The notes below the pieces were generated by a model. The model was given only the letters and a program-made list of their open reading frames with translations. It had not been told where the DNA came from and did no database searches. Shown here piece by piece: positions 3,709 through 46,843 of a stretch of DNA of 64,000 nucleotides (positions are counted from its first letter, which is position 1; every line of letters begins with the position of its first letter). Position numbers and translations under genes: made by a program. Source of the DNA: Mobula hypostoma (lineage: Eukaryota); the NCBI RefSeq assembly GCF_963921235.1, contig NC_086108.1:30940001-31004000 (forward strand), written 5' to 3'.

Positions 3709-5600
3709 ATGGCACCTATTGTGGTCACACAATGGCAGGTCGAGAATTCTGATGATCCCAGCCGGACCTTGACCCTGATTACCATCATTCACAGACCCTT
3801 CACCCTCGAGGAGAAGCAGAGCATTTTGTTAGAGCTGCCTTCACTTAAATTTGCTTGTGGGAATTCAGATTTCTGGCACAAGCCTGAGGAATTGATTGAA
3901 ATTCGCCAGCTACACCACAAAGGTGTACTATAGTGAGATGGGTAGAATGAGTGACAAGGTTCTGCGAGGGAGTTCAGGGAGTTGGGTGATAAGTTAAGGT
4001 CAGAACCTCCAGGGTTGCCATCTCAGGATTGCTACCTGTGGCACATGCTAGTGAGGCCATGCAGCATCTCCAAGTTTGCGGATGACACGAAGCTGGGTGG
4101 CAGTGTTAGCTGTGAGGAGGATGCTAAGAGGATGCAGGGTGACTTGGATAGGTTGGGTGAGTGGGCAAACTCATGGCAGATGCAATTTAATGTGGATAAA
4201 TGTGAAGTTATCCACTTTGGTGGCAAAAATAGGAAAACAGATTATTATCTGAATGGTGGCCGATTAGGAAAAGGGGAGGTGCAAGGAGACCTGGGTGTCA
4301 TTATACACCAGTCATTGAAAGTGGGCATGCAGGTACAGCAGGCGGTGAAAAAGGCGAATGGTATGCTGGCATTTATAGCAAGAGGATTCGAGTACAGGAG
4401 CAGGGAGGTACTACTGCAGTTGTACAAGGCCTTGGTGAGATCACACCTGGAGTATTGTGTGCAGTTTTGGTCCCCTAATCTGAGGAAAGACATCTTTGCC
4501 ATAGAGGGAGTACAAAGAAGGTTCACCAGATTGATTCCTGGGATGGCAGGTCTTTCATATGAAGAAAGACTGGATGAACTGGGCTTGTACTCGTTGGAAT
4601 TTAGAAGATTGAGGGGGGATCTGATTGAAACATATAAGATCCTAAAGGGATTGGACAGGCTAGATGCGGGAAGATTGTTCCCGATGTTGGGGAGGTCCAG
4701 AATGAGGGGTCACAGTTTGAGGATAAAGGGGAAGCCTTTTAGGACCGAGATGAGGAAAAACTTCTTCACACAGAGAGTGGTGAATCTGTGGAATTCTCTG
4801 CCACAGGAAACAGTTGAGGCCAGTTCATTGGCTATATTTAAGAGGGAGTTAGATACGGCCCTTGTGGCTACGGGGATCGGGGGTATGGAGGGAAGGCTGG
4901 GGTGGGGTTCTGAGTTGGATGATCAGCCATGATCATAATAAATGGCGGTGCAGGCTCGAAGGGCCGAATGGCCTACTCCTGCACCTATTTTCTATGTTTC
5001 TATAACACTTTTGGATCATTGGGCTCTCTTCCAGAGATGGTGGTACAGATAGGACAGTTTGCACATGAACTGGAGGGGGAATAATTCCTATCAGGAAGGT
5101 TTGTTAATGCTGCATTTAATGTGAGGTTTAAACTAGAGGCTGCAGGGGTTAATATGGGGTTTAAACTAGAGAGTGAAAGCCATGATGAGGCACAGAAGAA
5201 GCCATGGCATTCCACAGCAACCAAGGAAGACCCCAGTTGTGACGCTTGTTCGTAGCATTGGACCTGACCTTCTGAGGTCGAGAGGTGCTTTTCCACTTTA
5301 CAAGCTCACCCACGCAGGTTTAATGTCATTGCTTGGCTCGATGGACAGCTACCAAATAAGTATGTGATCCAGTCTTCCTGAAAATGCTGAAGGAAAGTCT
5401 GAGTTCAGCCCATCAGGAAGTTCTGGATTTGGGGATAGTAGTAGGATCAACCTACCCTGAGATAGTCTCATGGGCTGGGAGATACACCAGAGGAGGTGGA
5501 AGAGAAGTCGTACAGTGGCTATAGTGGATGCAGCTGCCGTGCTGTCATAGAGGACTTGCTCTGTGTGCCAGCAAACAGGGCACCTAGCAAGGAAGTGCCA
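3709..5600 (+). pseudogene. gag: ERV gag remnant (interrupted by CR1) with nucleocapsid zinc knuckle
   Basis: 5557-5598 translates CSVCQQTGHLARKC (C-x2-C-x4-H-x4-C); upstream HRPFTLEEKQSILLELP resembles a capsid-region motif (weaker evidence). Confidence 0.7.
4059..5003 (+). mobile_element. Young 5'-truncated CR1 LINE (RT C-terminal half) nested in ERV gag
   Basis: Near-identical to 33470-34417; KFADDTK RT motif; (TTTCTATG)n tail; the N-terminus of ORF 3982-4932 is flanking ERV sequence. Confidence 0.96.
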
Positions 5601-5818
5601 GGATAGTCATAGGAGGGGAAAGGAGATCATGTTACAGCTGTGGCCTGCTGGGCCATCGTTGGAGGCAGTGTCCTACAAAGAGACTAAGGTGTGCAAATCT
5701 TCCACCAAAACAAGAAATGATAGCAGTGCCTTCTCTGTCCAACAAGATCATAGAGCTTGTGAGATCAGCATCCATTTCATACAAATGGTTGGAGGCAGCC
5801 TTCATTGACAGTACTAGT

Positions 5819-6110
5819 CACCCACAGATAATTCTAAGAGGTTTATTAAAGGGCGAGCAATGTGAAATCTTAGTGGACACCAAGTCGTAAGTATTGATCT
5901 ACTCTTTCCCATGAATGGAGGGGCGATTTACATAACCAGTGCAGGGGGTAAAGCACTGAGGGTGGAGAAAATTGAGCCCCAGGTTCTTGAGATAGAAGGA
6001 GTGAAGTTTCCTGCAGATATTTGGATTTGCCCAAACAATGAGGGTACTGTCCTGGAGACAGGCACACAAAGTAAGGCAGGTGTCATCATAGATTCAGGAA
6101 AAGGAGAAAT
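5819..6110 (+). pseudogene. Retroviral aspartic protease remnant
   Basis: HPQIILRGLLKGEQCEILVDTKS* (degenerate LVDTG) then, after a frameshift, IYITSAGGK..LEIEGVKFPADIWICP..TVLE. Confidence 0.65.
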
Positions 6111-6244
6111 AACATGGACAAGACAGGGACAGAGAACATGTGTGACCCCCAGAGTAGCTAACATGGCCCGCAGAGAGACAACAGCCCCAAGCAAGGAGGA
6201 GAGGCAGGACAATGTATGGGAATCATATCAGGAGCTCCCAAAGG

Positions 6245-6385
6245 TCAAACACAGTCCAGAACTGTTAAAGGCAGTGAAGCTGCCCGCAAAGGTAGCAGCA
6301 ATTAAAGACACATGAGAAAGGGGAGAGTACAATGCAGAAAGAGACTGAATGTGCAGATCATGGGGTAAAGAGAGCAACCAAAGAA
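6245..6385 (+). pseudogene. Retroviral RNase H C-terminal remnant
   Basis: ELLKAVKLPAKVAAIK followed by ECADHGVKRA, resembling the class I pattern LL.AV.LP..VA.I ... N..AD..AK.A. Confidence 0.55.
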
Positions 6386-6523
6386 CATGAGTTGACAGAA
6401 ATTGAACGCGCAGAGAAAGAAATTACAGAGGGCAATTCAGTAAGATATTGTGTAGATGTGAAGGACCATTGTAACCAGGTTAACACAATGAGGGACAGAG
6501 CAAAACAACAGTAACATATTGCT

Positions 6524-6651
6524 ACATACATCAAAGTTGCTGGTGAACGCAGCAGGCCAAGCAGCATCTATAGGAAGAGGTGCAGTCGACGTTTCAGGCC
6601 GAGACCCTTCGTCAGGACTAACTGAAGGAAGAGTGAGTAAGGGATTTGAAA
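6524..6651 (-). mobile_element. 128-bp Penelope terminal-repeat fragment with 14-bp TSD
   Basis: Near-identical to 38605-38732; flanked by AGTAACATATTGCT at 6510-6523 and 6652-6665. Confidence 0.93.
6583..6620 (-). ncRNA. Minimal type I hammerhead ribozyme (Penelope-associated), intact core
   Basis: Reverse complement reads UAGUC-CUGACGA-AGGGUCUCGGCCU-GAAA-CG-UC-GACUG: core boxes, stem I UAGUC/GACUG, stem II, GUC site. Confidence 0.8.
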
Positions 6652-7619
6652 AGTAACATATTGCTGATCAGAGAGAGCCAGGAGAGAGAAAATAATCCTC
6701 CTACACCCAGAGAGCTGTCCGAAGGGGCCGGGTTCTCTCCCAGGTAGATAGGACTATAGGTGGTGCTCCAAACAAAAGACACATCTATTTCTGGGCAGAC
6801 TTTGTAATGAAGGCTGGCTCTGGGAGATAGATCAGTCGTTGTGTAGATCCGAATAGAAAGGTATTGAGTAAAATAGATGGGAAGGGATCCAAGTTATGGT
6901 AGAGACATGAACTTCCACAGGACCAAGAAAAGGAAGTTGCTCAGAGTGTCTGAAGTCAGCCACTCCGGGCTGGAAAAGGAGTGGATGCAAATGAACTGGA
7001 CCCTTTCAGTGGTCAGGCCACCAATCGAAGGAATAGTCCAGGAGTAGGTACCTCCAGGTTGAGGCCCTTGAAACTATTCCAATAGAGACTACCCCATACC
7101 CAGCTGTAGATTTATCAAAGGGGCTGAGAGACCTGTTGTCAGATTTTTCTGACACTCTTCCATCATGGCATGGAGTGTGAACCTGATACAGTTGCTCTGC
7201 ATGTGCCCCTGCCCTCAGAGTAACTACTAATAGCCACTACTGAGCTTTAACTATCAGATATTGAGGGGGTGAAGGTAAGGATGAGTAAATTACAGTGGTC
7301 CATCAGACGAGGAGGCAACAGCACATAAATAACAAAGCTGCATTTAAAACCTGTTGAAACTGAGAAAACAAGTGTGTCCACGAAGAACATATGATGATAT
7401 TTCCGGAATGTTTTATTGCCATCTCTACCTAGTCTTGTAGAGAGCCAGTTAGGGATGATAGTGTAGACATAAATGCATAGAGTTACATGATAGTTTAGTA
7501 ATTGGAGAAGGGATTCAAAGTGAAGGGCATTTTTGCTGCCCTCCTTTAAATTTAGCCTTTCTAGGACAGATTTCTGTCCAGGAGCCAGGAGGAGGGTAGG
7601 CCAGGGAATATTCAAGAGT

Positions 7620-10474
7620 TGTGTGAATGTAGCTGATATTAGCTCAAGCAAGAGCCAGTCTTCAGGTTTTTTTGCCAATTGCAAGCAGTAGACTGAAGTT
7701 AAAAGCCCACAGACTAAAAAATATGGTTTGTAAAATGGTGACCATGAGACCATACGCAATGGGGTTGTGTTAATTGGCCTGCATCAAACCTGGCAACATG
7801 GGCTAAGTTATTTGCACCATTGTGACTTGAGATTAATTTGGCAGACCAGACAAATGTTGTCACTTAGCTGATCAAACATGGCACAGGTATAGACAATCAA
7901 TAGCTTTCCTGTATTCAGGATATTTGTGTACTCAGAGGAAGCCCTGAAAACATTAATTTTGGATGTCTGGCTCTCTGTCTTCAGAATATTTTAGGGTATT
8001 TGTGTGAAATTCTTTGTGACAAGGGTGTTTGAACAATCAGAGGTGTCTCCCTCTGTATTTTAAAAGAAGTATTGATAAGCCAAAATATCGAAGTAAGTGA
8101 CGTCATAGTAACTATTGAAATTGTATGGAATCACCATTGATCTGAAGGCTGTAAAATGTGATATACTTTGGGTTTGTGAGCCTCTATTGAGAGCATCTCC
8201 AGGATGATGTCTGCTTCTTGTAACAAATAAAGACAGTGAGAAAATGGTCGGAGGAGGCTTATGAGGTGCTTCAGGGTTCTTTTGAGGTGACAGACTGGCA
8301 GGCACTCTGTAAGCCACATGGAGAGGATATTGATGGGCTCACAGAGTGCATCACTGATTACATCAACTTCTGTGTGGACTGCAATGTTCGCACAAAAACT
8401 GTCCTTTGTTATTCAAATAACAAGCCATGGGTGACAAAGGACATTAAGAACATCCTGAACGCTAAAAAGAGGGCTCTTAGAGATGGAAATAGGGAGGAGC
8501 TGAGGGCAATACAGAGGGACTTGAAAGCCAGGATCAGGGAGGCTAAAGACAGGTACAGGAGGAAGCTTGAGTGGAAACTCCAGCAGAACAACATGAGAGA
8601 GGTCTGGAGGGGGATGAGGACCATCACTGGGTTCCGGCAAACTAGCAACAGAGGAGTTGAAGGCAGTGTGGACAGGGCCAACGAACTTAACCTGTCCTTT
8701 AACAGATTTGACATTGTGGCCCCTGTCCATCCCCCACATGAGCCATCTGTTGTCGGCCCCCAACAAACACATATTCCACTCTCCCCTCCTACCCCTCCTC
8801 ACAGTCCCCCACTCTGCTCTCATGACTATACCCCTTCCCCACACGAAACCACCACGGTGGGCTTCACAGCTGAACAGGTGGGAAGACAGCTGAAATGTCT
8901 CAACCCAAGCAAGGCTGCAGGACCAGATGGTATCAGTACCAGGGTGCTCAAAGCCTGTGCCCCTCAGCTATGTGGAGTACTTCGCCATGTATTCAACCTG
9001 AGCCTGAGTCTCCGGAGGGTTCCTGTCCTGTGGAAGACGTCCTGCCTCGTCCCTGTGCCGAAGACGTCACGCCCCAGCGGCCTCAATGACTACAGACCGG
9101 TGGCATTGACCTCCCTCATCATGAAGACCCTGGAGAGACTTGTTCTGGAGCTGCTCCGGCCTATGGTCAGGCCACACTTAGATCCCCTCCAGTTTGCCTA
9201 CCAGCCCCGACTAGGAGTTGAGGATGCCATCGTCTACCTGCTGAACTGTGTCTACGCCCACCTGGACAAGCCAGCGAGCACTGTGAGGGTCATGTTTTTT
9301 GACTTCTCCAGTGCATTCAACACCATCTTCCCTGCTCTGCTGGGGGAGAAACTGACAGCGATGTAGGTGGATGCTCCCCTGGTGTCATGGATTCTTGATT
9401 ACCTCACTGGCAGACCACAGTACGTGTGCTTGCAACACTGTGTGTCTGACAGAGTGATCAGCAGCACTGGGGCTCCCCAGAGGACTGTCTTGTCTCCCTT
9501 TGTCTTCACCATTTACACCTCGGACTTCAACTACTGCACAGAGTCTTGTCATCTTCAGAAGTTTTCGGGTGACTCTGCCATAGTTGGATGCATCAGCAAG
9601 GGAGCTGAGGCTGAGTACAGGGCTACGGCAGGAAACTTTGTCACATGGTGTGAGCAGAATTATCTGCAGCTTAATGTGAAAAAGACTAAGGAGCTGGTGG
9701 TAGACCTAAGGAGAGCTAAGGTACCGGTGACCCCTGTTTCCATCCAAGGGGTCAGTGTGGACATGGTGGAGGATTACAAATACCTGGGGATACGAATTGA
9801 CAATAAACTGGACTGGTCAAAGGACACTGAGGCTGTCTACAAGAAGGGTCAGAGGCGTCTCTATTTCCTGAGGAGACTGAGGTCCTTTAACATCTGCCGG
9901 ACGATGCTGAGGATGTTCTACGAGTCTGTGGTGGCCAGTGCGATCATATTTGCTGTTGTGTGCTGGGGCAGCAGACACCAACAGAATCAACAAACTCATT
10001 TGTAAGGCCAGTGATGTTGTGGGGATGGAACTGGACTCTCTGATGGTGGTATCTGAAAAGGGAATGCTGTCTAAGTTGCATGCCATCTTAGACAATGTCT
10101 CCCGTCCACTACATAATGTACTGGGTGGGCACAGGAGTACATTCAGCCAAAGACTCATTCCACCGAGATGCAACACAGAGCGTCATAGGAAGTCATTCCT
10201 GCCTGTGGCCATCAAACTTTACAACTCCTCCCTTGGAGGGTCAGACACCCCGAGCTGGTCCTGGACTTATTTCCTGGCATAATTTACATATTACTATTAA
10301 ACTATTTATAGTTTTATTACTATTTATTATTTATGGTGCAACTGTAACAAAAAACTATTTCCCCCAGGATCAATAAAGTATAACTATGACTATGACTATG
10401 ACTATGATTATGACTTTCATATAAAGATTTCAGTGTCTCTCTGGTGACTTTGGTCATAGTCTCAAAAAAAAACA
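7620..10474 (+). repeat. ERV 3' LTR split by Rex1 (7620-8234 and 10415-10474)
   Basis: Homologous to the 5' LTR; purine tract aggaggagggtagg at ~7588-7600; AATAAA at 8226-8231; U5-like part resumes after the Rex1 tail. Confidence 0.87.
8235..10414 (+). mobile_element. Rex1/Babar-type non-LTR retrotransposon, 5'-truncated, relatively young
   Basis: ORFs 8236-9366 and 9367-10005 are in frame across one TAG; motifs KAAGPDG, NDYRPVALTS, DPLQFAY, FFDFSSAFNTI, GAPQ, LQKFSGDS (catalytic DD damaged), KTKELVVD; frameshift at ~9975; AATAAA plus (TATGAC)n tail. Confidence 0.95.
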
Positions 10475-13985: not shown

Positions 13986-15830
13986 ATCAAGTCAAGTCAA
14001 ATTTATTTATAAAGCGCATTTAAAAACTACCCATGTTGACCGAAGTGCTGTACAAACCATAACAGGTAGCTGAAATCACAAATACAAGAAACACAGATAT
14101 AAACAACAAGGCACACAGCTTATAGGCACAAAATAAACAACACATGAACCTAGGCACAAGCCAAAAATCAGCCACATCAGGAAGATTCAAACACTAGTGA
14201 ATAAAGGTAAGTTTTGAGCCTGGACTTAAAAGAGTCAATGGAGGGGTCAGATCTGATAGGGAGGGGAATGCTGTTCCACAGTCTAGGGGCTACAACAGCA
14301 AAGGCGCGGTCACCCCTGAACTTAAATTTAGATCGCGGGACGGCCAGGAGCCCCAAGTCAGCCGACCTGAGGGACCTGGAAGTAGGATAAGGGGTTAGAA
14401 GGTCTGCGATATAGGAGGGGGCCAGCCCATTTAGGGCTTTATAAACAAACAGGAGAACCTTAAAATCAATTCTAAACCCTACTGGTAGCCAGTGGAGAGA
14501 GGCCAGGATAGAAGTCATATGGTCCCTCTTTCGGGCACCTGTCAGGAGCCTGGCTGCAGCGTTCTGGACCAGTTGCAGGCGGGACAGGGACGACTGACTA
14601 ATCCCAGTATAGAGGGAGTTGGAGTAGTCCAAGCGGGAGGATATAAGGGCATGGATGACTTTCTTGAGATCTTTGAAAGAGGGAAATGACTTGATTTTGG
14701 CAATAGTACGAAGCTGGAAAAAACTGGCTTTTACTACTGCATTAACTTGCTTGTAAAACTTAAAGGCGTAATCAAATATCACACCAAGGTTTTCAACATG
14801 AGGTTTGATAAGGGTGGACAGGTTACCGAGACTATTGGTAATCACTTTGATGGAGTCAGGGGGGTCAAATAGGACAACTTCAGACTTGCCTTCATTCAGC
14901 TGTAGGGAGTTTTGTGCCATCCAACATTTTATGTCCTCAAGACAGTTCATGAGGCTGACAAGATTTGACTGGTTCTTTGGTTTCAAGAGGAGGTAAAGCT
15001 GTGTGTCATCAGCACAACAATGGAAGGAAATGTTGTGCTTTTGAATGATTTGACTGAGGGGAATCTTATATATAGAGAAAAGAATGAGACCTAGGATGGA
15101 ACCTTGTGGGACCCCGCAGGAGAAACTAGCTGTAGAAGAGGAAAATTTGCCTATGTTGACAGAGAATCTTCTATTTTTGAGGTAGGATGTGAACCAGTTC
15201 AAGGCAGTGCCATCAACACCAACCCTGTACTTGAGATGGTCTATTAAGATGGCATGATCTATAGTATCGAATGCTGCGCTGAGGTCAAGTAGAATTTGAA
15301 TGGCAGGGTCACCTGAGTCGGTAGAGAGGAGGAGATCATTATACACTTTCAGCAGGGAAGACTCTGTGCTATGATAAGCCTTAAAACCTGACTGAAATCT
15401 ATCCAAGATGTTGTTTTGGTGTAGGTAGGGCAGCAATTGACTAAGAATAACCTTTTCAAGAACCTTTGACAGGAATGGAAGTTTAGAAATAGGTCTGCAA
15501 TTACTAGGTAAGGTAGGGTCTAAGTTGTTTTATTTTCAGGAGAGACTGGACCACGGCGCGCTTGAAGCAGGTTGGAATGGTACCAGTGGGTAGGAAGCTG
15601 TTGATAGCAGAGAGGATGCTGGGACCAGCTATGTCAAAGACATCCTTCAGGAGGGCAGTGGGGACAATGTCAAGGGGGCAGGTTGCAGGTATCATGGTGG
15701 AAACAATCTTTGTAAGGGAGGGTAGCGTGATGGGTGGGAAACAGTCCAGTTTGGATGAACAGACCAGTGAGACAGTTAGGTCACAGGTAGGGGGGGAATG
15801 TTCACTCTAATATCTTCAACTTTGTTATAT
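13986..15830 (-). mobile_element. L2-clade LINE, 5'-truncated, with a 419-codon open RT segment
   Basis: ORF 14177-15436 has FQSGFK.YHSTES, LLDLSAAFDTIDH, GVPQGSILG, HCCADDTQLY, SRLDYSNSL, LQLVQNAAARLL, LHWLPV; upstream CPLDIVPT; (TTGAC)n tail. Confidence 0.95.
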
Positions 15831-16363: not shown

Positions 16364-16532
16364 AACAACAGGAATTCTGCAGATGCCGGAAATTCAAGCA
16401 ACATAAATCAAAGTTGCTGGTGAACGCAGCAGGCCAAGCAGTAGGAAGAGGTGCAGTCGACGCTTCAGGCCGAGACCCTTCGTCAGGACCCACGAAGGGT
16501 CTCGGCCTGAAGCGTCGACTGCACCTCTTCCT
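16364..16532. mobile_element. Penelope terminal-repeat mini-insertion with perfect 44-bp fold-back and 14-bp TSD
   Basis: TSD ACTATATAACTGGA at 16350-16363 and 16533-16546; arms 16440-16483 and 16492-16535; 8-nt loop. Confidence 0.92.
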
Positions 16533-16609
16533 ACTATATAACTGGATTATTGTGAAGAATGGTTTAAGTTGCATGATTTTCCTATAAGGTTCTTTAAGGT
16601 TTTTATAGA

Positions 16610-25338: not shown

Positions 25339-25376
25339 CAGTCGACGTTTCGGGCCGAGACCCTTCGTCAGGACTA
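25339..25376 (-). ncRNA. Minimal hammerhead ribozyme, intact core
   Basis: Reverse complement reads UAGUC CUGACGA A GGGU CUCG GCCC GAAA CG UC GACUG. Confidence 0.78.
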
Positions 25377-25628
25377 ACTGAAAGAAGAGATAGTAAGAGA
25401 TTTGAAAGTGGGAGGGGGAGGGGGAGATCCAAAATGATAGAAGACAGGAGGGAGAGGGATGGAGCCAAGAAGCTGGACAGGTGATTGGCAAAAGGGATAT
25501 GAGAGGATCATGGGCCAATCACCTGTCCAGCTCTTAGCTCCATCCCTCCCCCTCCTGTCTTCTCCTGTCATTTTGGATCTCCCCCTCCCCCTCCCACTTT
25601 CAAATCTCTTACTAGCTCTTCCTTCAGT

Positions 25629-25666
25629 TAGTCCTGACAACGGGTCTTGGTCTGAAACGTCGACTG
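25629..25666 (+). ncRNA. Hammerhead motif with mutated core (CUGACAA), probably inactive
   Basis: tagtc ctgacaa cgggtcttggtct gaaa cgtc gactg. Confidence 0.6.
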
Positions 25667-31714: not shown

Positions 31715-34525
31715 TCACAAACACAAGAAGGTCTGCAAATGCTGGAAATCCAAGCAACACACAAAAAATGCTGGAGGAATTCAGCAGGTCAGGTAGCACT
31801 TATTGAAAAGAATAAACAGTTGACTTTTCAGGCTGAGACCCTTCTTTAGGACTAAGAAGGAAGGGAAAAGATTCCAGAATAAAAAGATGGAAGGAGGGGA
31901 AAGAGGCTAGCTGGTGAAGCAAGGTGAGTGGGAAAGGTCACATGTAGACTGGGTGAACCAAATTGGTAAAGGTGCTGAGGAAGAGGATTTCTTGGAATGT
32001 ATGCGGGATGGTTTTTTGAACCAACATGTCGAGGAACCGACTAGAGAGCAGGCTATTCTGGACTGGGTTTTGAGCAATGAGGAAGGGTTAATTAGCGATC
32101 TTGTCGTGAGAGGCCCCTTGGGTAAGAGTGACCATAATATGGTGGAATTCTTCATTAACATGGAGAGTGACGTAGTTAATTCAGAAACAAAGGTTCTGAA
32201 CTTAAAGAGGGGTAACTTTGAAGGTATGAGACGTGAATTAGCTAAGATAGACTGGCAAATGACACTTCAAGGATTGACGGTGGATATGCAATGGCAGGCA
32301 TTTAAAGGTTGCATGGATGAACTACAACAATTGTTCATCCCAGTTTGGCAAAAGAATAAATCAAGGAAGGTAGTGCACCCGTGGCTGACAAGAGAAATTA
32401 GGGATAGTATCAATTCCAAAGAAGTAGCATACAAATTAGCCAGAGAAAGTGGCTCACCTGAGGACTGGGAGAAATTCAGAGTTCAGCAGAGGAGGACAAA
32501 GGGCTTAATTAGGAAGGGGAAAAAAGATTATGAGAGAAAACTGGCAGAGAACATAAAAACGGACTGTAAAAGCTTTTATAGATATGTAAAAAGGAAAAGA
32601 CTGATAAAGACAAATGTAGGTCCCCTGCAAACAGAAACAGGTGAATTGATTATGGGGAGCAAGGACATGGCAGACCAATTGAATAATTACTTTGGTTCTG
32701 TCTTCACTAAGGAGGACATAAATAATCTTCCAGAAATAGTAAGGGACAGAGGGTCCAGTGAGATGGAGGAACTGAGCGAAATACATGTTAGTAGGGAAGT
32801 GGTGTTAGGTAAATTGAAGGGATTGAAGGCAGATAAATCCCCAGGGCCAGATGGTCTGCATCCCAGAGTGCTTAAGGAAGTGGCCCAAGAAATAGTGGAT
32901 GCATTAGTGATCATTTTTCAAAACTCGTTAGATTCTGGACTAGTTCCTGTGGATTGGAGGGTGGCTAATGTAACCCCACTTTTTAAAAAAGGAGGGAGAG
33001 AGAAACCGGGGAATTATAGGCCGGTTAGCCTAACGTCAGTGGTGGGGAAACTGCTGGAGTCAGTTATCAAGGATGTGATAACAGCACATTTGGAAAGCGG
33101 TGAAATGATCGGACAAAGTCAGCATGGATTTGTGAAAGGAAAATCATGTCTGACGAATCTCATAGAATTTTTTGAGGATGTAACTAGTAGAGTGGATAGG
33201 GGAGAACCAGTGGATGTGGTATATTTGGATTTTCAAAAGGCTTTTGACAAGGTCCCACACAGGAGATTAGTGTGCAAACTTAAAGCACACGGTATTGGGG
33301 GTAAGGTATTGGTGTGGGTGGAGAATTGGTTAGCAGACAGGAAGCAAAGAGTGGGAATAAATGGGACCTTTTCAGAATGGCAGGCAGTGACTAGTGGGGT
33401 ACCGCAAGGCTCAGTGCTGGGACCCCAGTTGTTTACAATATATATTAATGACTTGGATGAGGGAATTAAATGCAGCATCTCCAAGTTTGCGGATGACACA
33501 AAGCTGGGTGGCAGTGTTAGCAGTGAGGAGGATGCTAAGAGGATGCAGGGTGACTTGGATAGGTTGGGTGAGTGGGCAAACTCATGGCAGATGCAATTTA
33601 ATGTGGATAAATGTGAAGTTATCCACTTTGGTGGCAAAAATAGGAAAACAGATTATTATCTGAATGGTGGCCGATTAGGAAAAGGGAAGGTGCAACGAGA
33701 CCTGGGTGTCATTATACACCAGTCATTGAAAGTGGGCATGCAGGTACAGCAGGCGGTGAAAAAGGCGAACGGTATGCTGGCATTTATAGCGAGAGGATTC
33801 GAGTACAGGAGCAGGGAGGTACTACTGCAGTTGTACAAGGCCTTGGTGAGACCACACCTGGAGTATTGTGTGCAGTTTTGGTCCCCTAATCTGAGGAAAG
33901 ACATCTTTGCCATAGAGGGAGTACAAAGAAGGTTCACCAGATTGATTCCTGGGATGGCAGGTCTTTCATATGAAGAAAGACTGGATGAACTGGGCTTGTA
34001 CTCGTTGGAATTTAGAAGATTGAGGGGGGATCTGATTGAAACGTATAAGATCCTAAAGGGATTGGACAGGCTAGATGCGGGAAGATTGTTCCCGATGTTG
34101 GGGAGGTCTAGAACGAGGGGTCACAGTTTGAGGATAGAGGGGAAGCCTTTTAGGACCGAGGTTAGGAAAAACTTCTTCACACAGAGAGTGGTGAATCTGT
34201 GGAATTCTCTGCCACAGCAAACTGTTGAGGCCAGTTCATTAGCTATGTTTAAAAGGAAGTTAGATATGGCCCTTGTGGCTACAGGGGTCAGGGGGTATGG
34301 AGGGAAGGCTGGGTTCTGAGTTGGATGATCAGCCATGATCATAATAAATGGCGGTGCAGGCTCAAAGGGTCGAATGGCCTACTCCTGCACCTATTTTCTA
34401 TGTTTCTATGTTTCTATGTCAAGGGCTGAAGAGGAAAGAATCTGATAGGAGAGGAGAGTGGACCATAGGAGAAAGAGAAGGAGAAGGGGACCCAGGGGAA
34501 GTAATAGGGAGGTTATAAATAAAAA
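31715..34525 (-). mobile_element. Old Penelope terminal repeat (31715-31940 and 34418-34525) split by a young CR1
   Basis: aacacaagaaggtctgcaaatgctggaaatcc start; sequence ...gggaaaggtca | gtcaagggctg... is continuous across the CR1, as in 19165-19260. Confidence 0.85.
31941..34417 (+). mobile_element. Young CR1 LINE, 5'-truncated within the endonuclease; ORF2 uninterrupted for ~790 codons
   Basis: ORF 31914-34319: LDWVL..SDH (APE C-terminus), KSPGPDG, NYRPVSLTS, YLDFQKAFD, GVPQGSVLGP, KFADD; (TTTCTATG)3 tail; GTCA on both flanks. Confidence 0.97.
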
Positions 34526-38555: not shown

Positions 38556-38599
38556 GTCTACGCCATGAGGACACTATGTGTAGTCTACAGTGTATTTAT

Positions 38600-39868
38600 A
38601 AGCAACATACATCAAAGTTGCTGGTGAACGCAGCAGGCCAAGCAGCATCTATAGGAAGAGGTGCAGTCGACGTTTCAGGCCGAGACCCTTCGTCAGGAGT
38701 AACTGAAGGAAGAGTGAGTAAGGGATTTGAAAGCCGGAGGGGGAGGGGGAGATCCAAAATGATAGGAGAAGACAGGAGGAGGAGGGATAGAGCCAAGAGC
38801 TGGACAGGTGATTGGCAAAAGGGATACGAGAGGATCATGGGACAGGAGGTCCGGGAAGAAAGACAAGGAGGGGGGGGTGACCCAGAGGATGGGCAAGAGG
38901 TATATTCAGAGGGACAGAGGGAGAAAAAGGAGAGTGAGAGAAAGAATGTGTGCATAAAAATGAGTAACAGATGGGGTACGAGGGGGAGGTGGGGCCTTAG
39001 CGGAAGTTAGAGAAGTCGATGTTCATGCCATCAGGTTGGAGGCTACCCAGACGGAATATAAGGTGTTGTTCCTCCAACCTGAGTGTGGCTTCATCTTTAC
39101 AGTAGAGAAGGCCGTGGATAGACATGTCAGAATGGGAATGGGATGTGGAATTAAAATGTGTGGCCACTGGGAGATCCTGCTTTCTCTGGCGGACAGAACG
39201 TAGATGTTCAGCAAAGCGGTCTCCCAGTCTGCGTCGGGTCTCACCAATATATAAAAGGCCACATCGGGAGCACCAGACGCAGTATATCACCCCAGTCGAC
39301 TCACAGGTGAAGTGATGCCTCACCTGGAAGGACTGTTTGGGGCCCTGAATGGTGGTATGGGAGGAAGTGTAAGGGCATGTGTAGCACTTGTTCCGCTTAC
39401 ACGGATAAGTGCCAGGAGGGAGATCAGTGGGGAGGGATGGGGGGGACGAATGGACAAGGGAGTTGTGTAGGGAGCGATCCCTGTGGAATGCAGAGGGGGG
39501 GGGAGGGAAATATGTGCTTAGTGGTGGGATCCCGTTGGAGGTGGCGGAAGTTACGGAGAATAATATGTTGGACCCGGAGGCTGGTGGGGTGGTAGGTGAG
39601 GACCAGGGGAACCCTATTCCTAGTGGGGTGGTGGGAGGATGGAGTGAGAGCAGATGTACGTGAAATGGGGGAGATGCGTTTAAGAGCAGAGTTGATAGTG
39701 GAGGAAGGGAAGCCCCTTTCTTTAAAAAAGGAAGACATCTCCCTCGTCCTAGAATGAAAAGTCTCATCCTGAGAGCAGATGCGGCGGAGACGGAGGAATT
39801 GCGAGAAGGGGATGGCGTTTTTGCAAGAGACAGGGTGAGAAGAGGAATAGTCCAGATCACTGTGAGAG
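38600..39868 (-). mobile_element. Young Penelope-like element, 5'-truncated: RT thumb/linker, Cys motif, GIY-YIG endonuclease, terminal repeat
   Basis: ORF 38997-39890 has CKRNKCYTC and GVIYCVWCSRCGLLYIGETRRRLGDRFAEH...VATHFN...LQPDGMN; upstream frame FFKERGFP..VPLVLTYHP; frameshift at the G-run near 39500. Confidence 0.95.
38664..38701 (-). ncRNA. Minimal hammerhead ribozyme, intact core, one stem I mismatch
   Basis: Reverse complement reads UACUC CUGACGA AGGGUCUCGGCCU GAAA CG UC GACUG. Confidence 0.7.
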
Positions 39869-45740: not shown

Positions 45741-46022
45741 AAGTCACCTCTGAAATAAGGAAAATAATTTAATCGTATAGTCGGCAGAGTACAGCACAGA
45801 AACAGTCGCATTAACCATCTAGTCTGTGCCGAACCATTTAAATTGCCTACTCCCATCGACCTGCGTCAAGACAATAGCCCACCATATCCCTACCATCCAC
45901 GTACCTATCCAAACTTATCTTAAAAGTTGAAATCGCGCTCACATGCACCACTTGTGCTGGCAGCTCATTCTACTCATGACCCTCTGAGTGAAGAAGTTTC
46001 CCCTCATATTCCCCTTAAACTT

Positions 46023-46843
46023 GATCTCCCTCCTGGCACTTATCCGTGTAAGCGGAACAAGTGCTACACATGCCCTTACACTTCCTCCCATACCACCATT
46101 CAGGGCCCCAAACAGTCCTTCCAGGTGAGGCATCACTTCACCTGTGAGTCGACTGGGGTGATATACTGCGTCCGGTGCTCCCGATGTGGCCTTTTATATA
46201 TTGGTGAGACCCGACGCAGACTGGGAGACCGCTTTGCTGAACATCTACGCTCTGTCCGCCAGAGAAAGCAGGATCTCCCAGTGGCCACACATTTTAATTC
46301 CACATCCCATTCCCATTCTGACATGTCTATCCACGGCCTCCTCTACTGTAAAGATGAAGCCACACTCAGGTTGGAGGAACAACACCTTATATTCCATCTG
46401 GGTAGCCTCCAACCTGATGGCATGAACATTGACTTCTCTAACTTCCGCTAGGCCCCACCTCCCCCTCGTACCCCAGCTGTTACTCATTTTTATGCACACA
46501 TTCTTTCTCTCACTCTCCTTTTTCTCCCTCTGTCCCTCTGAATATACCTCTTGCCCATCCTCTGGGTCACCCCCCCCCCGTCTTTCTCCCTAGGCCTCCT
46601 GTCCCATGATCCTCTCGTATCCCCTTTTGCCTATCACCTGTCCAGCTCTCGGCTCTATCCCTCCCCCTCCTGTCTTCTCCTATCATTTTGCATCTCCCCC
46701 TCCCCCTCCAGCTTTCAAATCCCTTACTCACTCTTCCTTCAGTTAGTCCTGACGAAGGGTCTCGGCCTGAAACGTCGACTGCGCCTCTTCCTATAGATGC
46801 TGCTTGGCCTGCTGCGTTCACCAGCAACTTTGATGTATGTTGT
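46023..46843 (+). mobile_element. Young Penelope-like 3' fragment (GIY-YIG plus terminal repeat)
   Basis: Near-identical reverse complement of ~38604-39425; DLPPGTYPCKRNKCYTC...VIYC...YIGET...NIDFSNFR*. Confidence 0.96.
46744..46781 (+). ncRNA. Minimal type I hammerhead ribozyme, intact; predicted cleavage after C46776
   Basis: TAGTC CTGACGA AGGGTCTCGGCCT GAAA CG TC GACTG, in sense orientation ~290 nt downstream of the GIY-YIG stop codon. Confidence 0.82.

What the first reader, a model, noticed from the sequence alone, without database searches (positions are those of the whole stretch)
46744..46781. Minimal hammerhead ribozyme in the terminal repeat of a young Penelope family
Seen: UAGUC-CUGACGA-[AGG GUCUCGG CCU]-GAAA-CG-UC|GACUG. 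It has both catalytic boxes, a 5-bp stem I, a short stem II, and a stem III reduced to the palindrome ACGU before a GUC site. Six young copies occur in the window (6583, 16454, 25339, 25629, 38664, 46744), plus eroded ones (~11395, ~19050, ~31820, ~63465). Established: Penelope-like elements carry minimal type I hammerheads in their terminal repeats, proposed to cleave as dimers. Inference: this family processes its own RNA here, and the ACGU palindrome would let two copies form stem III intermolecularly.
Basis: partly seen in the sequence, partly recalled or inferred. Interest (0 to 1): 0.75.

Follow-up and report, generated by a model that had tools for sequence, protein, structure and literature searches.

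The report
Known minimal hammerhead in Penelope retrotransposon
This is a real but ordinary copy of the tiny hammerhead-type RNA motif already known from the ends of Penelope-like jumping genes; it sits in a broken copy of a very abundant family, is predicted to cut itself only weakly and only when two copies pair, and most genomic copies were likely made from uncut RNA.

Summary
The motif is at 46744-46781 as described and is not chance: 29,805 exact copies genome-wide, control 0. It lies 298 nt after the stop of a GIY-YIG gene end, in a 5'-truncated copy (46022-46842) of a Neptune-type Penelope-like element. Intact tandem copies have an RT plus GIY-YIG frame between two such motifs. This is the published minimal hammerhead of Penelope elements (PMC4209133). 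Corrections: stem II is better drawn as a bulged A plus G10.1-Y11.1; only 3 of the 6 'young' copies are intact; this solo copy has no partner for a dimer in the window. Four other repeat families keep the core with different, paired stems. Cleavage is not shown. Copy 5' ends cluster at the motif's 5' edge (1,064 and 1,317) far more than at the cut (107; neighbours 26 and 52). An older subfamily spread with the rate-lowering A6C core (18 of 21 copies). The scan noted such motifs, the 5'-edge pile-up and a mutated core before, on other DNA.

The parts
46744..46781 (+). Minimal type I hammerhead motif
   Evidence: 29,805 exact genome copies
46744..46748 (+). Stem I 5' arm; pairs with 46777-46781 (terminal U-G here, C-G in older subfamilies)
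46749..46755 (+). Core box C3-A9 (CUGACGA)
46756..46756 (+). Unpaired A between A9 and G10.1
   Evidence: A in 120 of 126 copies; feature of PLE min-HHRs in PMC4209133
46757..46768 (+). Stem II: 46757-46760 with 46765-46768, 4-nt loop; G10.1-U11.1 (C11.1 in many copies)
46769..46776 (+). GAAA box, ACGU palindrome (46772-46775; predicted two-copy stem III) and C17; predicted cut after 46776
   Evidence: hammerhead numbering from established knowledge
46777..46781 (+). Stem I 3' arm
46730..46760 (+). Predicted competing hairpin that pairs upstream bases with CUGA and the stem II 5' arm
   Evidence: prediction only
46022..46842 (+). 5'-truncated Penelope-like copy: end of ORF, C/T-rich 3' region, hammerhead, about 65 nt beyond the cut; no tail extension
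   Evidence: 96.8% identical to 38592-39426
46023..46451 (+). C-terminal 142 aa of the ORF: CX4CxxC linker and GIY-YIG endonuclease
   Evidence: PF01541 E 5.6e-05, above cut-off
6583..6620 (-). Young copy, motif identical to 46744
16454..16491 (-). Young copy with A15.1->G; head-to-head with a partial copy at 16492-16533 (+)
25339..25376 (-). Young copy, intact, C11.1; head-to-head with 25629
25629..25666 (+). Young copy with G8->A and three other changes
38664..38701 (-). Young copy with a stem I mismatch, in a longer truncated copy that carries GIY-YIG

Best explanation
The motif is the minimal type I hammerhead in the pseudo-LTR of a very abundant Neptune-type Penelope-like retrotransposon, and the copy at 46744 is a solo, 5'-truncated insertion; the RNA is predicted to cut after C17 only slowly, when two copies pair and likely with help from the element's protein, and most copies were likely made from uncut RNA. 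Shown: the motif, its place after the RT-GIY-YIG frame, tandem source-type loci with two same-strand motifs 3.5 kb apart, and retention of the core with different paired stems in five lineages of this genome. Inferred: a read-through RNA from a tandem locus carries two motifs; their ACGU palindromes form stem III between copies and allow occasional cutting. Inferred: reverse transcription starts about 65 or 100 nt downstream of the cut site, so a copy that holds the whole motif came from RNA that was uncut there (or re-joined). Cutting is then a minor or regulatory step rather than the step that makes each template.
For: GIY-YIG ends 298 nt before C3. L054 and L055 each have two same-strand motifs, 3,512 and 3,513 nt apart; L054 holds a 1,043-aa frame with RVT_1 and GIY-YIG hits. 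3' ends of 64 young copies fall mainly at +87 to +103 and +122 to +136 from C3, downstream of the cut at +27, like the two start sites and tail of Anolis PAc (PMC11167929). Subfamily consensuses clustered on flanks alone differ by 11% in the 38-nt motif, against 42% in the 50 nt upstream and 35% in the next 20 nt downstream. Contigs from four public runs share the block and come loose at 46745 and at 46779-46781. Four other families, re-collected by stem II alone, keep the core, the bulge, G10.1-C11.1 and the palindrome. Their own stem II arms pair 15 of 15 vs 1.05 of 3 when swapped, 1 of 120 permutations. Published: Schistosoma min-HHR is inactive as a monomer and weak as a dimer (PMC4209133); PAc hammerhead cuts only with protein and is not needed for insertion in vitro (PMC11167929).
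Against: No cleavage or RNA-end data. The active dimer is far from the predicted minimum (-11.5 vs -30.3 kcal/mol; two monomers -22.0), and in the young family an upstream hairpin is predicted to trap the core. The core positions are no more conserved than the rest of the 38 nt (both 11%), and a downstream block is nearly as conserved (15%). One subfamily spread with A6C. Stem I cognate pairing across families is weaker (18 of 20; 8 of 120 permutations). The RT hit is below the Pfam cut-off (24.1 vs 29.6 bits).
Confidence: 0.68

Rival explanations
1. Cleavage is the main processing step: the two motifs of a tandem cut out unit-length RNA, possibly circularised, which is the template (model of Cervera and de la Pena 2014; the first reader's view).
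For: Tandem loci with two motifs. Short same-strand arrays with four motifs 310 nt apart (L326) and two motifs 262 nt apart (L327). 107 copies begin at the base after the cut vs 26 at 3 nt later and 52 at 5 nt earlier; 18 of 20 sampled were true junctions. Re-joined circles would also leave whole motifs in copies.
Against: The motif's 5' edge holds far more ends (1,064 at -5; 1,317 at +2), and an upstream control holds 270, about the same rate as the cut site after scaling. Many cut-site junctions are inversions with 1-5 nt microhomology. Of 18 sampled copies spanning the pLTR-ORF junction none starts at +28. PAc showed no RNA reads ending at its cut (PMC11167929).
Confidence: 0.14
2. The motif is kept for a non-catalytic job, such as marking the RNA's 5' start or binding the element's protein; cutting is vestigial in this family.
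For: The A6C subfamily spread widely (18 of 21 vs 3 of 105 copies; Fisher p 6e-16), and A6C slows other hammerheads strongly in Mg2+ (PMC7151607). The youngest lineage is predicted to misfold (stem I probability 0.002, vs 0.85-0.96 in three older consensuses and 0.06 in a fourth). Copy 5' ends pile up at the motif's 5' edge. Naiad PLEs thrive without hammerheads (PMC8557442).
Against: Five lineages with different stems keep the exact catalytic boxes and an H at position 17. A6C is a tolerated natural variant, not a null (PMC7151607, PMC3088659). The most recent expansion has the canonical A6 (48 of 48). The +2 hot spot is largely explained by the near-palindrome GTC-CT-GAC.
Confidence: 0.17
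3. A chance look-alike amplified by the transposon.
For: No Rfam match; no folding signal; all copies of one family descend from one source.
Against: Same architecture with different, self-complementary stems in four other families; match to every published min-HHR trait (PMC4209133); expected position in the pLTR.
Confidence: 0.01

Closest known systems
Minimal hammerheads (min-HHR) in pLTRs of metazoan Penelope-like elements (Cervera and de la Pena 2014, PMC4209133; parts 1-2 of 4 read)
   Same: Type I; 4-5 bp stem I; unpaired base between 9 and 10.1; G10.1; palindromic 15.2-16.2 with no loop 3; in pLTRs; mostly solo or head-to-head copies; reported from Xena, Poseidon and Neptune elements of fishes.
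   Different: Stem II is short here (4 bp; 7-8 bp in Schistosoma); many young copies have G10.1-U11.1; copy number (29,805 exact) exceeds the 4,000-9,000 motifs quoted there for coelacanth and Xenopus; an A6C subfamily.
Poseidon element of Anolis carolinensis, PAc (Frangieh et al. 2024, PMC11167929; parts 1-2 of 4 read)
   Same: Hammerhead at the pLTR-ORF junction; two 3' end positions downstream of the cut, the second giving a 30-40 nt tail.
   Different: In PAc the ORF starts in stem II; here the open frame begins about 60 nt after the cut. This element has a Neptune/Nematis-type CX4CxxC linker.
Neptune clade of EN+ PLEs (Craig et al. 2021, PMC8557442; passages read)
   Same: Single RT + C-terminal GIY-YIG frame, DKG motif, CX2-5CxxC linker, pLTRs, inverted truncated partners, one-sided tail.
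   Different: Clade placement rests on motifs only; Nematis shares the linker; no tree was built.
Animal non-LTR retrozymes (Li et al. 2026, 10.64898/2026.07.22.740005; parts 1-3 of 5 read)
   Same: Short tandem arrays of pLTR-derived units with hammerheads (L326, L327).
   Different: The window copy is a truncated coding element, not a tandem unit; in that paper only 1 of 9 tested dimers cleaved.
A6C hammerhead of phage Bcep176 (PMC7151607, PMC3088659; passages read)
   Same: Same core change as the older C6 subfamily in this genome.
   Different: The window's copy has canonical A6; Bcep176 is not a minimal, dimer-dependent motif.

Membership tests
PLE minimal hammerhead (type I) | Core CUGANGA ... 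GAAA and UH cut site | tested here: met
   CUGACGA, GAAA, GUC
PLE minimal hammerhead (type I) | Open stem I of 4-5 bp | tested here: met
   5 bp; the outer pair is U-G here and C-G in older subfamilies
PLE minimal hammerhead (type I) | Unpaired base between 9 and 10.1; G10.1-C11.1 | tested here: met
   bulge A 120 of 126, G10.1 116 of 126; 11.1 C in 52 and T (wobble, as in this copy) in 61
PLE minimal hammerhead (type I) | Palindromic 15.2-16.2, no stable stem III | tested here: met
   ACGU here and, allowing for CpG decay, in four other families
PLE minimal hammerhead (type I) | Located in the pLTR of a PLE | tested here: met
PLE minimal hammerhead (type I) | Compensatory changes in stems | tested here: met
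   across families stem II 15 of 15 (1 of 120 permutations), stem I 18 of 20 (8 of 120); within this family only one-sided changes
PLE minimal hammerhead (type I) | Self-cleavage as a dimer | not testable with these tools
   only contigs available; folding does not favour the active dimer
Rfam hammerhead families | Covariance-model match | tested here: not met
   0 at gathering; no hammerhead family at E<=10; expected for a motif without stem III
EN+ Penelope-like element | One ORF with RT and C-terminal GIY-YIG | tested here: met
   L054: RVT_1 E 3.4e-05, GIY-YIG E 0.0011, both below Pfam cut-offs; DKGG and YIDD in the sequence
EN+ Penelope-like element | Tandem pLTRs, inverted truncated partners, tail | tested here: met
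EN+ Penelope-like element | RT closest to telomerase RT | tested here: inconclusive
   phmmer against PDB gave no meaningful hit; no tree built
Neptune clade | CX2-5CxxC linker between RT and EN | tested here: met
   CX4CxxC in P0002 and P0003; shared with Nematis
Neptune clade | RT phylogeny | not tested
   no reference sequences in hand
Pseudoknot-type hammerhead | Loop II pairing with a distal strand, kept by matched changes | tested here: not met
   best partner in the window copy is 3-4 bp; no family beat shuffles (p 0.13-0.90)

The most novel reading that the evidence does not exclude
In this Penelope family the hammerhead is not the cutter that makes the template: its 5' edge marks where the template RNA begins or where the RT runs off, and cleavage is dispensable. 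[quoted passage not shown] The genome would be a natural mutagenesis series for asking what PLE hammerheads are for.
Probability: 0.2. Interest if true: 0.55.

Novelty: new member of a known kind. Interest (0 to 1): 0.2.

Why it matters
As a motif it is ordinary: PLE minimal hammerheads have been in print since 2014, including from fish Neptune elements. The open question is what they do; PMC8557442 calls their function unclear. This genome offers matched natural variants (canonical young, A6C older, four other families, 310-nt arrays) and tens of thousands of junctions, so the need for cleavage can be tested directly. The window copy itself is most likely inert.

Tried and rejected
Rfam at gathering and at E<=10: no hammerhead. 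Folding z-scores: no signal. RNA evidence: no RNA holder listed on record; the runs laid were contigs only and cannot show ends, strand or level, so they were used only for sequence variants. Cut-site footprint: 107 vs 26 and 52 looked like a peak, but controls at +2 (1,317), -5 (1,064) and -15 (270) left it inconclusive; the +47 control (990) was dropped because its matches look like subfamily variants rather than junctions (not fetched). Loop II pseudoknot: not supported. MAFFT could not align families with different stem II lengths, so pairs were counted on anchored columns and no covariance model was built. PDB search uninformative. Sequence look-up in earlier findings empty. Lunse, Weinberg and Breaker (RNA Biol 14:1499) is not held; only its title and a review's summary were seen. 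A mistaken id returned an unrelated paper. The host species was not determined.

Full report
Observation. Window 46744-46781 (+) carries stem I 5' arm, CUGACGA, a 13-nt segment, GAAA, CGUC and the stem I 3' arm exactly as quoted; C17 is 46776. A descriptor requiring both boxes, a stem II of 3 bp or more, UH and a stem I of 4 bp or more finds 3 hits in the window and 0 in each of 50 shuffles. Over the window plus 100 fixed-position 10-kb stretches it finds 29 hits (28 of this family) against 0-1 in each of 5 shuffles. The exact 38-mer occurs 29,805 times in the 3.48-Gb genome, reversed control 0. All six young copies are present but only 3 of 6 are intact; 16454, 25629 and 38664 carry core or stem changes. 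An iterated profile finds 19 hits in the window. Rfam has no hammerhead match and folding energy is unremarkable.

Structure. Among 126 spanning copies position 11.1 is T in 61 and C in 52, the bulge is A in 120 and 10.1 is G in 116. This matches the published traits: an unpaired base between 9 and 10.1, G10.1-C11.1, and a palindrome at 15.2-16.2 (PMC4209133). The isolated monomer's best fold pairs GACG of the core with CGUC and is inactive. The active dimer is predicted at -11.5 kcal/mol against -30.3 for an inactive duplex. In context an upstream hairpin traps CUGA, with stem I probability 0.001-0.006. These are nearest-neighbour predictions and ignore tertiary contacts and protein.

Element. 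The motif lies 298 nt after the stop of a GIY-YIG frame (PF01541) in a copy spanning 46022-46842. A protein search of the genome scored 150 of 202,098 candidates; from these I fetched 20 loci, most with long open frames. Two of them, L054 and L055, have same-strand motifs 3,512 and 3,513 nt apart. L054 has a 1,043-aa frame with RVT_1 and GIY-YIG hits below the curated cut-offs, DKGG, YIDD and a CX4CxxC linker; PMC8557442 gives that linker for Neptune and Nematis. Head-to-head partners are common. 3' ends of 64 young copies cluster at +87 to +103 and +122 to +136 from C3, the second group carrying the tail. There are 179 profile hits in the fixed 1 Mb, which extrapolates to roughly 600,000 fragments; only large contigs were sampled. 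The pLTR-ORF junction 31-mer occurs 381 times.

Conservation test. Of 322 hits, 126 spanned the motif with flanks and were clustered on flank columns only. Across the five clusters of 9 or more copies, consensus differences average 11% in the 38-nt motif, 42% in the 50 nt upstream, 35% in the next 20 nt downstream and 15% further downstream; the 13 core and closing positions also differ by 11%. So the motif is conserved as a block relative to its immediate flanks, but the core is not singled out within the block. A pattern with a non-A bulge gave 466 matches against 18 for the control and revealed other families. Four were re-collected by their stem II alone (56, 63, 950 and 57 matches; 20 loci each read). 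Their majority sequences carry CUGA(U/G)GA, a bulge, G10.1-C11.1, GAAA and CGU(C/U), with CpG decay at G12 and in the palindrome. Own-family arms pair at 15 of 15 stem II positions (1 of 120 permutations) and 18 of 20 stem I positions (8 of 120). These families were first found through a core pattern, so families lacking a core could not appear; stem pairing was not part of the pattern. Their PLE identity rests only on weak endonuclease similarity (tblastn E 0.001-0.1 in 6 of 80 loci, a GIY-like motif in one more).

Against simple processing. An older cluster has C at position 6 in 18 of 21 copies against 3 of 105 elsewhere. An undecayed version matches 117 times, and 16 of 126 copies covering that column in the fixed 1 Mb have C6, which extrapolates to some 40,000-55,000 copies. 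A6C slows other hammerheads strongly in Mg2+ but less in Mn2+ (PMC7151607). To look for cut templates I counted copies whose two preceding bases both differ from the element. Starts at -15, -5, +2, +23, +28 (after the cut) and +31 gave 270, 1,064, 1,317, 52, 107 and 26. Scaled by exact 27-mer counts in 1.56 Mb (34, 23, 22, 13, 13, 14) these are about 8, 46, 60, 4, 8 and 2. Of the first 20 cut-site hits, 18 were true junctions, many inversions with short microhomology; hits at the other positions were not fetched as a set. In my own sample 12 of 64 5' ends lie in -10 to +10 and 1 in +26 to +30; some of the 12 are paired arms of one inversion and one is likely a subfamily boundary. The cut site thus shows a 2-4-fold local excess that microhomology could explain, while the strong pile-up is at the motif's 5' edge. 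Earlier scan notes read that edge as an RNA start; I confirmed the pile-up but could not test the start.

Mechanism. Shown: anatomy, position, tandem loci, comparative conservation. From the literature: Schistosoma min-HHR cleaves weakly and only as a dimer or trimer (PMC4209133); the PAc hammerhead needs protein, is dispensable for insertion in vitro, and left no read ends at its cut (PMC11167929); 1 of 9 Xenopus dimers cleaved (10.64898/2026.07.22.740005). Inferred: this family behaves alike, with slow, dimer- and protein-dependent cutting at tandem loci or short arrays such as L326 (four motifs, period 310), and most insertion from uncut RNA. The window copy has no intact same-strand partner in the window, so processing 'here' is unlikely.

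Literature seen. PMC4209133 and PMC11167929: parts 1-2 of 4. The 2026 preprint: parts 1-3 of 5. PMC6765202, PMC7151607, PMC3088659, PMC8557442: passages. No supplements were read; those of PMC4209133 may list this motif. Searches for Penelope + hammerhead ribozyme + cartilaginous, Penelope + Neptune + chondrichthyan and Penelope + hammerhead + the C6 core string found nothing, but the library lacks Lunse et al., which catalogues PLE variants. That the host is a cartilaginous fish is a recalled resemblance and was not tested.

Verdict. A real, new member of a known kind; interest 0.2. The A6C subfamily and the junction map are usable leads on an open question, already noted by this scan on other DNA.

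Noticed in passing
L201-L230 (e.g. G000:C1:142943688-142943720): Older subfamily with A6C in the core (18 of 21 flank-clustered copies; 117 undecayed matches); likely tens of thousands of copies.
   Followed up: partly
L326:174-1436 (G000:C2:157816300-157818300); L327: 310-nt tandem array, 4.1 units, 99% matches, four motifs (two with U17); a 262-nt two-unit array at L327. Retrozyme-like and the best natural substrates for a dimer assay.
   Followed up: partly
L246-L325: Four other repeat families with minimal hammerheads with 6-7 bp stems II; weak endonuclease similarity upstream suggests other PLE clades.
   Followed up: partly
genome-wide; window 16454-16533, 25339-25666: 5' junctions and fold-back inversions pile up at the motif's 5' edge (-5, +2); the near-palindrome GTC-CT-GAC gives a microhomology hot spot.
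   Followed up: partly
window 46797-46842 and older copies: A conserved ATG 20 nt after the cut is in frame with the main ORF in 25 of 51 older tailed copies but out of frame in 26 of 27 young ones; the next in-frame codon is ATG in 14 and GTG in 25 young copies. The start codon may have shifted.
   Followed up: partly
cluster of 5 old copies: Consensus with A9->C in the core; small sample.
   Followed up: no
window 31911-34319 (+), 14177-15529 (-), 8224-10005 (+), 3955-4932 (+): Frames with RVT_1 hits, apparently LINE remnants; repeat family D1 at 4430, 33841 and 61414 is 97-98% identical.
   Followed up: no
L226:1820-1953: Copy with C6 core and older upstream flank but young-type 3' end; a recombinant or intermediate lineage.
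   Followed up: no
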